Assembly: GCF_004010195.1 (NCBI RefSeq)
Contig: NC_057723.1
Coordinates: forward strand, 49,917,940 to 49,981,939
From: Chiloscyllium plagiosum
Taxonomy: Eukaryota
Direction of reading: 5' to 3'
DNA length: 64,000 nucleotides
A program made the translations under genes and the position numbers. Shown in pieces: positions 1 to 53,502 of the stretch (position 1 is its first letter; every line of letters starts with the position of its first letter). Under the pieces are notes generated by a model. It saw only the letters and a program-made list of their open reading frames with translations, did no database searches and was not told the origin of the DNA.

Positions 1-1344
1 CTCATTAATAAAATAATTACCAAATAAAACACAACCACACATGCTATCTTCTGCATAATCCTGACAAATTCAGAGGGAATCTCAACAAATTAGTAATGCC
101 ACATTATGCAGCATTACAGCTTTTAAACCATACCTGTAAGATAATGCTCTTGTTCTGTCATATCTGAAATACAGTATTTTTGCTCTATTTAGCTTTATAA
201 GTGTCAAGTAGAATATTAAATATGTAACATGATTATTAAACATTTTGGAATTATTAGCCCATCTAAAACTTTTCTTTTATGTAAGTTGACTGGAAAGTGT
301 AATTAAAATACTTCAGACAAATCAAAGTTCAAAAATTGGATCACTTTAAAGACTTAGATAATACTTTATGGGTCACAAAGATGGGATAAGCTGTTAACTT
401 TCTGGCTAAATGGATGATACTGTGGTTTATAACTTAACTTTTCCTCTGTGATATGGCCTCTCCTACTGTGTTAATTTTGTTTTTATGTCTGAACCATTAA
501 CTCTGGGATTTTGCTTCTCCAGGCCAATTATATTGAACAGTGGGCTCATGATGTTTTGAGTGAAGGAAATCCAAGGAAGTTGTTTTTTTTTTAATTCATT
601 GGTTGGGTTTCTTGGCAATTTACTGAGAAGTTTTGTGAATTTGCAAGCCTGTGAATGGCAGCAGTCCAAAAAGCATTGTGTGTGTACAACTATTGAGCAT
701 TCATTGCTCGATAGACGAAGTGGTTCTTTTGAGAAACTGGCAGCAAATGAGGCAGCAATTTAAAATAATTCCCTTAGCTTTTATTGGTATTTTGATGTCT
801 GTTTAAAGTGTCTAGCGATAAGGGCCTCCACTCGCTTCATCTGTTGGTTCAGACTGAAATTTGAGTTCCAGTTGTATCTGCAAAGTGTTACAAGGTTTGC
901 AAGTGTTTAAGTGAATTTTGTTTCTTAATTGCACTATTTGAGCTAGGTGTTATCATCTTCATGTGACACTGTTGCAATTGTACAGTATATTAGTAACATG
1001 TATTTTCCATAGCTCTGAGGCATCACATTAACTTTGATAATATATATGGAGTTCAAAATATGGATCAACTTCTGAGCTGTGCAGTAAAATGTCTGACTGT
1101 ACTTTCAACCCATAAAGGTTTTGCAATAATTCCAAAGATTGCAAGTGTTTTTTTACATTTATCTTCAGTGGAAACACAAAGCAGAGAAATTGGATTAGGA
1201 AAAAAAGATAGAAACAATTCAATTACTAAATGTATCTTTTTTGCCATTTTAAAGCCTTACTTAGAGTTTATAATTATTTTCTCAAGTATGTTAATTAGAA
1301 GGATTAGAGAAATGATCATATGTTTATTAAACTGCATGAGGAGG

Positions 1345-3539: not shown

Positions 3540-4105
3540 AATTGCAACAATATTGCACCTGTCATGATGACAAGACATCCCAAAACATCTTATAGTCAGT
3601 GAGATACTTTTTGAACTGTGATTACATGAAATGTAGGAAAGACTAGAGAATCTGCACATAACACAAATGTGGTAATGACCAGATGTGGGAATGATTCCTG
3701 AAGAAGGGCTCATGCCCGAAACGTCGATTCTCCTGCTCCTTGGATGCTGCCTCGATTCTCCTGCTCCTTGGATGCTGCCTGACCTGCTGCGCTTTTCCAG
3801 CAACACATTTTTGGCAATGACCAGATGTAACCTATTTTTGTGATGTTATTTGAGGATACACCCTTTTAGGAGAGTGAGAATAACTCCCCTCCTTTTCTTT
3901 GAAACAGAATCATGCAATCTCCACCTGAGTGGGTAAACAAGACCTTGGTTTAAATACTCAATTAAAATTCACCATCTTCAACAGTTAGCATTTCTTCATT
4001 GATGTATCAGCCTTGATTTGTGGGTGTGTGTCCTTGGAATGGCATTTGAACCCCTAACTTTCAGACTGAGTGCATGAGTAGGATCAAGTGAGCCAGCGGC
4101 TGACA
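3540..4105 (-). mobile_element. Deu-domain (SacSINE1/AmnSINE-like) tRNA SINE, interrupted by a Penelope-type insert
   Basis: ccacctgag...ccttggtttaa...ccatcttcaacag resembles the reverse complement of the Deu core; tRNA-like head at the right end; related decayed copies near 10.8, 16.2, 21.5 and 46.0 kb. Confidence 0.6.
3687..3815 (+). mobile_element. Penelope-like pLTR fragment with a minimal hammerhead motif
   Basis: 13-bp TSD aatgaccagatgt (3674-3686 and 3816-3828); CTGAAGA-a-GGGC-tcat-GCCC-GAAA-CG-TC at 3698-3725; internal 28-bp tandem duplication (3724-3751 and 3752-3779). Confidence 0.75.
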
Positions 4106-33045: not shown

Positions 33046-33145
33046 CCTGATTTGGAGAACCACCTGATGAAGGAGCAGCGCTCTGAAAGCTAGTGCTTCC
33101 AAATAAACCTGTTGGACTATAACCTGGTGTTGTGTGATTTTTAAA
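33046..33145 (+). mobile_element. Penelope-like pLTR fragment with an intact minimal hammerhead motif
   Basis: 12-bp TSD tatgttggagga (33034-33045 and 33146-33157); CAC-CTGATGA-a-GGAGC-agc-GCTCT-GAAA-GC-TA-GTG at 33061-33095; near-identical to the 51.6-51.8 kb arms. Confidence 0.8.
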
Positions 33146-35561: not shown

Positions 35562-35753
35562 AAACTAAAAAAACTGCAGATGCTGGAATCTAAAGTAGAC
35601 AGTCAGGAGGCTGGAAGAACACAGCAACCAGGCAGCATCAGGAGGTGGAGATGATGACATTTTGGGTGTTACCTGAAGCAGGGTTACTTCTCCACCTCCT
35701 GATGCTGCCTGGCTTGTTGGGTTCTTTCAGCCTTCCTGCCTGTCTACTTTAAC
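35562..35753. mobile_element. Palindromic Penelope-type insertion
   Basis: 12-bp TSD tcatgtctccag (35550-35561 and 35754-35765); ~60-bp inverted arms at 35592-35651 and 35689-35750. Confidence 0.75.
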
Positions 35754-51093: not shown

Positions 51094-51572
51094 ATAAGGA
51101 AGTTACTTGGTGCTATTGCCTTTTTCGGATCTCAAGTTCTTTCCACTCTCATGATCTGTGTTCTCAGTCTCTCCTCATAATATATGTTCTGTCCTCGGTT
51201 TCTCTAAGGCTCTGATGTTTTATGCTGCTGGATAGTCCATCCTGGTCCATCCTGTTAGTGTTTATTCACTTGCTGGTAATCTGCACACATGGCCTTGCTC
51301 ATTCTGCTGTGTCTGATACTCTTTGCCATTTGGTAGTTGATCTCTCTAAACTGCATTTGATGTATTGACTTTTGAATACAATCATAATGGTAATTACTTA
51401 CATGTAATTTAATGTTTTATTTGGCTCATTAGTTTTATTGCTATTAACACAGTAGATGCTTGTCATATAAACTCATAAACTTTTTATTCAGTTGCAGCTG
51501 ACTGCCATTCTTACATTCACCTTGCTTAGATTGAAGCCTGACTTTGATGCATCAAATCATAATTGAAGTTTT

Positions 51573-51784
51573 GATTTGGAGATGCCGGTGTTGGACTGGG
51601 GTGTACAAAGTTAAAAATCACACAACACCAGGTTATAGTCCAACAGGTTTAATTGGAAGCACTAGCTTTCGGAGCAATGCTCCTTCATCAGGTGATCACC
51701 TGATGAAGCAGCGTCGCTCCGAAAGCTAGTGTGCTTCCAATTAAACCTGTTGGACTATAACCTGGTGTTGTGTGATTTTTAACT
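51573..51784. mobile_element. Young palindromic Penelope-type insertion with two hammerhead motifs
   Basis: Arms 51609-51695 and 51696-51784 with no spacer (centre ggtga|tcacc); 12-bp TSD with one mismatch (aattgaagtttt 51561-51572, aagtgaagtttt 51785-51796). Confidence 0.85.
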
Positions 51785-53502
51785 AAGTGAAGTTTTATTG
51801 CATTAAAGAGTTCAGATCAGTCATTACCATACACAAAAGAAAAGTAGTTCATATTTCTCTTTTTTTTTCATTTTGCCATTTGTCAAACTTCTGTGGTGCT
51901 GCACACAGGTTAGTAAGACCTGATGCAAAATTCATGTTAGAATTAGTGGGCATGCACAGAATTGAATCAAGGTATGCACGGAGGAGACGGATAGGAGGGG
52001 AAGAGATGGAGGAGAGAATGGGAGAGGTGGAAGTTAGAGAAGAAGATCTGCGACAAGTGAGTAAGAGACATGTTAGAGGAGCATGGGTTAGAGAAATAGG
52101 GAACCATAAATGAGAGACTGGTAAGATGGAAATGCAGAAGAGAGAAATTTGTGGAATAAGGGAAGACATGGGAAGCCAAAAAAAGTGCTTTAGTGACTGC
52201 CAAAGGAGTGTAATAGGTGCAACAGATAAATGGAGAGGGAAGGCAGCATAGACCAGAAGAACTAGTCACGGTGAGAGAAGTTGGAGCATGTTTTTCAGGT
52301 GAAATTCATGCAGCTAAAATTATATGTAACCCTGCAGGTATAGGATGGTGAAATGTGATGTTTATAACCAAATCAAATCTCAAAGTTGATGGCATCGTGG
52401 AATATTTAGACACTGCCTCAGCTGTCCTGTTTGAGTATTTACGTATGTTTTCTTTTGCTGGAAGAGAGATGAGTGGGTATCCTTACTGATGCCTCTGAGG
52501 TAGTAATGCCATTGATGAAATTAACCTTGTGTTGTAATAATTTGTGGTTGTAAACATGTAAACAGGATCAGCTGAAAATAAAACAACTCTAAGTATTTAA
52601 GACAAAAAAACCTACAGGCATCAGTTGAATTAGTCACATTTTTCAATGTCTTTTGAAATAACTGTTGTGAGCCACATTACTTTTATCCTTTCTATGTGTA
52701 AAAAAATTAACACCTGAATGTGTGGATAAGCTTTCATGTTATAAGATATACTAAATAACTTTTTCAAGACTTCACAACATTCTATTTTTCCTTCTTTCTC
52801 CCTTTCGAAGGCTATGACTGCTCATGATGTAGTGTCCCAAGGGCCCTGATGACCTTAGAAGATCTGACCAAATCATTTGCACAATCTTTTGTGTGAGCTA
52901 AGATGGTGGCTGTTGTCAGGTTACTCAACCATAACAAACATTATAATGAAAGCTAATTGTACCCTCACTTGATATTGGAACACACACACACTTTGCACTA
53001 ACACACGAGAAGAAAAGGAAGCAAAAACCCTCATCATCCTCCCACATCGCTGGTTGTAAGTGAGCAGAAGCAAAATGTAGGAATTGGTTAATGTTGTGTC
53101 TGTCACTGGCTCCAAGTCATGCATCAAACCCAATTGCCTTTGTGTCTTTAGCTGTAAGCTAAATTCGCACAATTTTCTTGCCGAATTTTTTGAGTACAAC
53201 ATCCAGTACTATTATCATTTGTGCTAATCCAGTTAAGTGTCTATGTTTGTCATCCTATTTGAATAGTTTACAACATAGAACTGTGCTTGATGAACTATGT
53301 TTATTAAACAGATTTAGAAACTACAGCTGTACAAAATGGCCATTCAGCATTTGTACCATTTTTAACAATTCCAAAAGGAGCTATGTACTGCTCCTAAAAT
53401 TTATCAATATATTTCGATTCATGTACAAGTTTTTTTTTTTAAAAAATACTATTTTAAAGTTATTGTTGATTAGAAGTTATGGCTTTACTTAAATTTCCAC
53501 AG

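What the first reader, a model, noticed from the sequence alone, without database searches (positions are those of the whole stretch)
51573..51784. Spacer-less ~176-bp palindrome carrying back-to-back hammerhead ribozyme cores in PPARGC1B intron 8
Seen: arms of 87 and 89 bp meet at ggtga|tcacc. The minus strand (51694-51660) reads CAC-CUGAUGA-A-GGAGC-auu-GCUCC-GAAA-GC-UA-GUG. This is the CUGANGA/GAAA/NUH core with a perfect 5-bp stem II, a 3-bp stem I, one extra A before stem II and only a palindromic AGCU in place of stem III. The plus strand (51697-51731) has the same motif with one C-C mismatch in stem II. Established: Penelope-like retroelements carry minimal type I hammerheads in their pseudo-LTRs and often insert with an inverted pLTR; such minimal motifs generally need to dimerise. 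Inference: in the pre-mRNA the long hairpin would sequester the sense ribozyme, so the unit may be self-silenced, and it is also a likely ADAR/Dicer substrate and DNA cruciform.
Basis: partly seen in the sequence, partly recalled or inferred. Interest (0 to 1): 0.7.

Follow-up and report, generated by a model that had tools for sequence, protein, structure and literature searches.

The report
Twin-primed Penelope leader stub, shark intron
This mirror-image stretch in a shark PGC-1beta intron is one insertion of two back-to-back end pieces of a very abundant Penelope-type jumping gene, a known layout with a known small ribozyme motif; it likely formed when each cut DNA strand copied the front end of the element's RNA, so it records how these elements copy themselves rather than being a new ribozyme device.

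Summary
The palindrome and both hammerhead motifs are real. It is one insertion (13-bp target duplication, 36-bp one-sided tail) of two head-to-head end pieces of a Neptune-type Penelope-like element. The genome holds 34,326 exact copies of a 28-mer from the arm, and 56 loci share this exact centre. The layout and the minimal hammerhead are published. The copies constrain the mechanism. 66 of 69 joined pairs have one long and one short arm. In 33 of those 66 neither arm lies within the other, which excludes simple fold-back. 46 of 100 arms start just upstream of the hammerhead, about 30 nt behind a TATA box. RNA reads show poly(A) 12-15 nt behind the arm's A(A/T)TAAA. Single insertions record run-off at that start, an added G, and a jump into the ORF. 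Best reading: both cut strands prime cDNA on capped leader RNA; the two cDNAs join at a shared AT. No trace of cleavage was found, and there is no RNA coverage of this locus, so self-silencing and editing are untested. The scan noted twin priming, run-off, the poly(A) site and jumps before on other DNA.

The parts
51560..51572 (.). Left copy of the 13-bp target-site duplication
   Evidence: 12 of 13 identical to 51784-51796; most directly joined pairs show 9-14 bp duplications
51573..51608 (-). 36-bp one-sided 'tail': the part between the short (+84) and long (+121) 3' ends; in the parent it runs up to the ORF's ATG
   Evidence: tail described in PMC3846280, PMC8557442, PMC11167929
51609..51695 (-). 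Left arm (with the tail: the long arm, -5 to about +121 counted from hammerhead C3); lacks the TG of the younger subfamily
51660..51694 (-). Intact minimal type I hammerhead motif (CAC/GUG stem I, 5-bp stem II, palindromic AGCU); antisense to the host pre-mRNA
51648..51653 (-). Poly(A) signal ATTAAA of the left arm; family reads carry poly(A) at 51636/51633
   Evidence: 201 and 247 reads, from any family copy
51695..51696 (.). Shared self-complementary AT: 2-nt overlap at which the two arms join
   Evidence: parent reads ...CCAC(A/T)ATCACCTGATGA; overlap -2; 56 loci share the exact 26-nt centre
51696..51784 (+). Right arm (short arm, -5 to +84), sense to the host pre-mRNA
51697..51731 (+). Minimal hammerhead motif with a G-to-C change at 51709 that breaks stem II; predicted cut after 51728
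51740..51745 (+). Poly(A) signal ATTAAA (AATAAA in older copies), followed by family poly(A) sites 51757/51760 and a GU/U-rich stretch to 51780
51784..51796 (.). Right copy of the target-site duplication; its first T is shared with the arm

Best explanation
This is a single insertion of two head-to-head end pieces of a Neptune-type Penelope-like retrotransposon, likely made when both strands of a staggered cut primed reverse transcription on the element's leader RNA and the two short cDNAs likely joined at a shared AT. Shown: target duplication, parent element, one long plus one short arm, varied junctions, pile-up of starts, used poly(A) site, same-strand chimeras inside one duplication. Inferred: (1) the endonuclease leaves about 13-nt 3' overhangs; (2) one strand starts at about +121 and the other at about +84 of an AC-rich stem-loop just before the ATG; (3) both run to or near the capped 5' end at about -8, 30 nt behind a TATA box and just before the hammerhead; (4) most such run-off cDNAs are joined by microhomology or a few added bases, giving stubs like this one, and some jump to a downstream part of an RNA and go on; (5) the two arms often come from two RNA molecules. 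The hammerhead is a passenger at this locus and is predicted to be locked in the hairpin, as is the poly(A) signal.
For: Parent: RT (Pfam RVT_1, E 1.9e-8), C-terminal GIY-YIG-like region with CX4CxxC linker; leader runs into the ATG. Copy number 9,887 (33-mer) and 34,326 (28-mer). 57 of 100 consecutive arms on contig C1 have a joined inverted partner; 3' ends split 44 short, 56 long. 66 of 69 joined pairs are long+short (p = 9e-17 against 0.5). In 33 of the 66 the short arm starts 4 or more nt upstream of the long arm, so neither contains the other. 46 of 100 arms start at -12..-1, only 3 at -30..-13. Poly(A) at +57/+60: 499 and 408 reads of 3,680 laid. 17 chimeras join ORF sequence to a leader starting at -14..0; 9 of the 14 with added bases have G next to the leader (p = 0.004 against 0.27); most of those with a traced partner lie in one 10-16 bp duplication. 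Arms differ at family markers: the TG indel in 13 of 62 pairs, +41 T/A in 6 of 63. In vitro, a Poseidon protein cuts and extends both strands from two internal starts that bracket the tail, is predicted to be a dimer, and does not need hammerhead cleavage (PMC11167929).
Against: All mechanism steps are read from genomic fossils; none was assayed. In vitro the start site did not differ between strands (PMC11167929), whereas the copies demand one long and one short. The TSS is predicted, not mapped; no read-start pile-up was seen ('-type library). In inverted junctions the G before -8 (13 of 17) is confounded by the G-rich partner, and G is also common at 0, -4 and -5. The 17 chimeras were picked by eye. 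The TG indel lies in a GT repeat and could slip after insertion; marker discordance is lower than for independent draws. 21 of 100 arms extend beyond -30 and need read-through RNA or a jump, which I cannot tell apart. Only 1 genomic copy shows an A-run at the poly(A) site.
Confidence: 0.75

Rival explanations
1. Self-priming or fold-back: one cDNA (or an antisense template) folds back and is copied, so the second arm is a copy of the first (the reading of PMC3846280).
For: Perfect centres recur (56 loci); 18 of 66 pairs start within 3 nt of each other and 15 have the long arm containing the short one; this locus alone fits it.
Against: 33 of 66 pairs are not nested; arms differ at family markers, also at this locus; perfect centres fall on self-complementary dinucleotides, as microhomology joining predicts; poly(A) reads show sense transcripts.
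Confidence: 0.1
2. Twin priming on one long tandem transcript, the arms coming from its two pseudo-LTRs.
For: Explains long+short pairing and marker differences with one RNA; partial tandems exist (18 of 88 ORF-start copies extend beyond -30); PMC11167929 assumes a multi-copy mRNA.
Against: Both arms usually stop near -8, also in 6 of the 13 TG-discordant pairs (both within -12..+8); an arm from a downstream pseudo-LTR has no reason to stop there, unless the hammerhead fold itself blocks the enzyme.
Confidence: 0.1
3. The palindrome is a non-autonomous, self-silenced ribozyme element that spreads as a unit, or has been kept for a role in the host gene.
For: 40 close whole-unit matches at 93-98% identity; shared with a second organism label.
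Against: The 56 exact centres are a small class among thousands of different junctions; copies sit in different flanks with their own duplications; the sense motif is broken; sharing with a relative about 2-3% divergent shows age only.
Confidence: 0.04
4. Assembly artefact.
For: No contig spans the centre; one similar locus (L013) has mirrored flanks too.
Against: Arms differ at 5 bases, the tail is one-sided, a target duplication frames the unit, and both outer junctions occur in two independent DNA runs.
Confidence: 0.01

Closest known systems
EN+ Penelope-like element insertions with inverted pLTR, one-sided tail and TSD (Pen2a_Av, PMC3846280, passages and Discussion read; general scheme in PMC8557442, passages read)
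   Same: Head-to-head inverted ends, 30-40 bp tail at one end, 8-13 bp duplication, palindromic junction, TATA and initiator-like motif in the end repeat
   Different: No ORF between the ends; 212 bp; tens of thousands of arms; junction statistics argue against the self-priming explanation given there
Minimal hammerheads of metazoan PLEs (PMC4209133, results and discussion read; Lunse et al. known only through passages of PMC6765202)
   Same: Core CUGANGA/GAAA/UH, extra base before stem II, G-C first pair, palindrome in place of stem III; opposite-strand pairs 100-700 bp apart were already noted there
   Different: Stem I is only 3 bp; the two motifs here are on opposite strands and cannot form the tandem dimer in one RNA
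Poseidon of Anolis carolinensis in vitro (PMC11167929, main text read)
   Same: Two internal starts in an AC-rich stem-loop that bracket the tail; both strands cut and extended; uncleaved RNA as template
   Different: Here the starts lie before the ATG, not in the ORF; the parent has the CX4CxxC linker of Neptune/Nematis; copies show strict long+short pairing
L1 twin priming, and the U3-R-U5 layout with strong-stop cDNA of LTR elements (both recalled; search listings only)
   Same: Second strand primes its own cDNA, head-to-head joint by microhomology; start site upstream of the poly(A) site within the end repeat, priming just downstream of it
   Different: Both arms copy the same stretch; priming is by target DNA, not tRNA; no poly(A) tails on inserts; no RNase H or integrase seen

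Membership tests
EN+ Penelope-like elements | [quoted passage not shown] | tested here: met
   Parent copies L061, L062, L287, L309: RVT_1 hit; VYLIRCRQGCPEAWYIGET read by eye; Pfam gave no hit on that piece; all copies seen are broken
EN+ Penelope-like elements | Pseudo-LTR organisation, inverted 5' copy, one-sided 30-40 bp tail, TSD | tested here: met
Neptune/Nematis clade | CX2-5CxxC motif in the RT-EN linker | tested here: met
   PCHGGRCKTC in L309; definition from PMC8557442
Neptune/Nematis clade | Placement in an RT tree | not tested
   No tree built; Neptune versus Nematis not resolved
Minimal type I hammerhead (min-HHR) | Conserved core, extra base before stem II, palindromic stem III remnant | tested here: met
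   Met on the minus arm; stem II broken on the plus arm
Minimal type I hammerhead (min-HHR) | Covariation of stems | tested here: met
   Between repeat families in 1.1 Mb of fetched DNA: stem I CAC/GTG, TAC/GTA, TTC/GAA, ATC/GAT, GTT/AAC, CCA/TGG; stem II GGAGC/GCTCC, GGGC/GCCC, GGGTC/GACCC; AGCT or ACGT kept in most. The scan demands pairing, so this shows variety of paired forms, not a frequency
Minimal type I hammerhead (min-HHR) | Self-cleavage as a dimer or with protein help | not testable with these tools
   Indirect only: 2 of 100 arms start at +27..+31, one beside a gap; 0 of 2 leader re-starts follow +28; no read pile-up
Rfam hammerhead families | Covariance-model hit | tested here: not met
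   No hammerhead family at E <= 10
Non-LTR retrozymes | Head-to-tail tandem units each with a hammerhead | tested here: not met
   Arms are inverted; definition from bioRxiv 10.64898/2026.07.22.740005, part 1 of 5 read

The most novel reading that the evidence does not exclude
Penelope elements replicate like a target-primed retrovirus: the end repeat is U3-R-U5 (TATA; cap at -8 to poly(A) at +60; two RT starts before the ATG), a protein dimer holds two leader RNAs, possibly paired through the hammerhead's palindromic AGCU as a dimerisation signal, each cut strand makes a strong-stop cDNA from its own fixed start, and jumps from the cap back to the RNA's 3' part rebuild the pseudo-LTR. Stubs like this one are failed jumps.
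Probability: 0.3. Interest if true: 0.7.

Novelty: new member of a known kind. Interest (0 to 1): 0.3.

Why it matters
The locus itself is ordinary. The family is useful because how Penelope elements make inverted ends, one-sided tails and pseudo-LTRs is stated to be open (PMC8557442, PMC2377424, PMC11167929). Its short copies give sharp predictions for an existing in vitro system: strand-specific start sites, run-off at a cap, two RNAs per event, and jumps. Tens of thousands of arms also carry a working poly(A) signal, which could cut host transcripts short when inserted in sense; the hairpin form would be predicted to mask it.

Tried and rejected
Rfam scan: no hammerhead hit; miRNA hits are generic hairpin matches below threshold. 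A cluster of ORF-copy 5' ends near the poly(A) site seen in 30 loci vanished in 88 copies, which spread evenly over +33..+118 with a pile near -8: rejected. Cap G at inverted junctions: confounded by the partner arm; only the jump junctions were used. End-to-end jumps onto poly(A): 1 locus genome-wide by exact pattern, so not the usual route. Genomic trace of hammerhead cleavage: none; both tests are insensitive. Locus-specific expression or editing: no RNA holder listed on record; run X22 laid no reads, and X21 reads come from other copies. MAFFT misaligned the short hammerhead set (one row also mis-specified), so no formal pair count was run. Pfam and PDB gave nothing useful for the host exons. 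The Lunse paper was not held. Seven literature searches listed no paper that proposes twin priming, cap run-off or an R-like region for Penelope elements; subscription journals are not covered and no supplements were read (those of PMC11167929 may bear on this).

Full report
Observation. The palindrome is as described: arms 51609-51695 and 51696-51784, differing by 3 substitutions and a 2-bp indel, z = -19.7. Both hammerhead readings are right, including the C-C mismatch on the plus arm. A paired-stem scan finds 2 motifs in the window and none in 30 shuffles. Rfam has no hammerhead hit. The host gene is a PPARGC1B orthologue: the best hit is a Chiloscyllium protein at 99%, and most bony-vertebrate hits are named PGC-1beta. 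Exon mapping puts the site in intron 8 on the + strand, if the missing first 25 residues are one exon. The whole unit is 51573-51784, with a 36-bp tail on the left only and a 13-bp target duplication.

What it is. The arm is the end piece of an abundant repeat: 9,887 exact 33-mers and 34,326 exact 28-mers. The exact 26-nt centre occurs at 56 loci; the 30 closest whole-unit matches sit in different flanks, nearly all with their own duplication. [quoted passage not shown] In L062 the arm and tail run straight into the ATG. Inverted ends, a one-sided tail and a duplication are the published layout (PMC3846280, PMC8557442), and the motif is the published minimal hammerhead (PMC4209133). Other repeat families in the fetched DNA carry the same core with different paired stems.

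Copy statistics. Positions count from hammerhead C3 (window 51700). I took the first 100 matches on contig C1 for each of two patterns (the samples overlap in part). For the pattern downstream of the cut site, 57 of 100 arms have a joined inverted partner, 3' ends are 44 short (+79..98) and 56 long (+110 or more), and 5' ends are 46 at -12..-1, 3 at -30..-13, 21 further up, 2 at +27..+31. Of 69 joined pairs from both samples, 66 are long+short, 2 short+short, 1 long+long. In 33 of the 66 neither arm contains the other, which a fold-back copy cannot give. Arms disagree at family markers in 13 of 62 (TG indel) and 6 of 63 (+41) pairs; this locus is itself discordant for the indel. Slippage could explain part of that. 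The parent has TATAAAT with its first T at -38 and an initiator-like A at -8 (motif names from general knowledge).

RNA. Run X21 shows long A-runs joined at +57 and +60, 12-15 nt behind A(A/T)TAAA, where the genome has a GU/U-rich stretch (499 and 408 of 3,680 reads). These reads come from any copy and may be host transcripts that use the signal. The poly(A) site lies downstream of the predicted start and upstream of both RT starts, so a polyadenylated mRNA holds the RT starts only near its 5' end. No read-start or read-end pile-up was reported, and this locus's unique flanks are almost uncovered, so editing and small RNAs are untested.

Jumps. Among 91 copies that hold the ORF start (70 of the 80 exact matches fetched or already held as new loci, 8 more already held, 2 small contigs skipped), many end inside the ORF and continue on the same strand into a fresh leader. 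In 17 picked from that list the leader starts at -14..0; 14 have added bases, and 9 of these have G next to the leader, as expected from copying a cap (recalled from L1 work). Most with a traced partner lie inside one 10-16 bp duplication, so run-off and jump happened within one event. One locus, L316, has an A-run at the poly(A) site joined to a downstream piece. An apparent cluster of 5' ends at the poly(A) site did not survive the larger sample.

Mechanism. Best reading: a staggered cut; each 3' end primes cDNA on leader RNA, one at about +121 and one at about +84, in a predicted stem-loop (weak z-scores of -0.5 to -2.5); both run to or near the cap; they join at a shared AT. This fits the in vitro behaviour of a Poseidon protein (PMC11167929), except that start sites there did not differ by strand. 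The published alternative, self-priming on an antisense template (PMC3846280), fails for the non-nested pairs. Whether long copies come from seamless jumps or read-through RNA is open. At this locus the sense hammerhead is damaged, and it and the poly(A) signal are predicted to be fully paired; no function is shown.

Novelty. Layout and motif are known. Seven searches listed no paper with the twin-priming, run-off and R-like reading; coverage is limited to open papers and no supplements were read. Papers seen: PMC11167929 and PMC4209133 parts 1-2 of 4; PMC3846280 passages and Discussion; PMC8557442, PMC2377424, PMC6765202 passages; the retrozyme preprint part 1 of 5. Earlier notes of this scan had reached twin priming, run-off, the poly(A) site and jumps on other DNA; I saw them after forming the twin-priming, run-off and poly(A) readings, and they are not independent support. 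Two notes report junctions at the ribozyme cut site in other genomes; my test here found none (0 of 2). Verdict: real, a new member of a known kind, modest interest as a mechanistic fossil.

Noticed in passing
window 33061-33145 (+): Solo arm of the older subfamily upstream of the first mapped exon, sense to the gene, with canonical AATAAA, an intact motif (G-U in stem II), a short tail remnant on the left and a duplication of about 12 bp (TATGTTGGAGGA): a candidate unmasked intronic poly(A) site
   Followed up: partly
window 35591-35751: Older, 79% palindrome of a different repeat family with a decayed hammerhead-like centre
   Followed up: no
window 3695-3812 (+): Hammerhead-like motif of another family (GGGC/GCCC, ACGT palindrome) followed by a short internal duplication
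   Followed up: no
L316 1500-1545: Copy with an 8-A run at the poly(A) site joined to a piece starting at +39: possible fossil of a jump onto a polyadenylated end
   Followed up: partly
L013/L022: Palindrome with tails on both arms whose flanks are mirrored as well: rearrangement or assembly artefact
   Followed up: no
L045, L078: Partner arms that both end at +34 instead of +84 or +121; unexplained
   Followed up: no
L223-L310: Chimeras whose leader starts near -8 mostly end at the short site, while those with upstream sequence mostly end at the long site; not counted formally
   Followed up: partly
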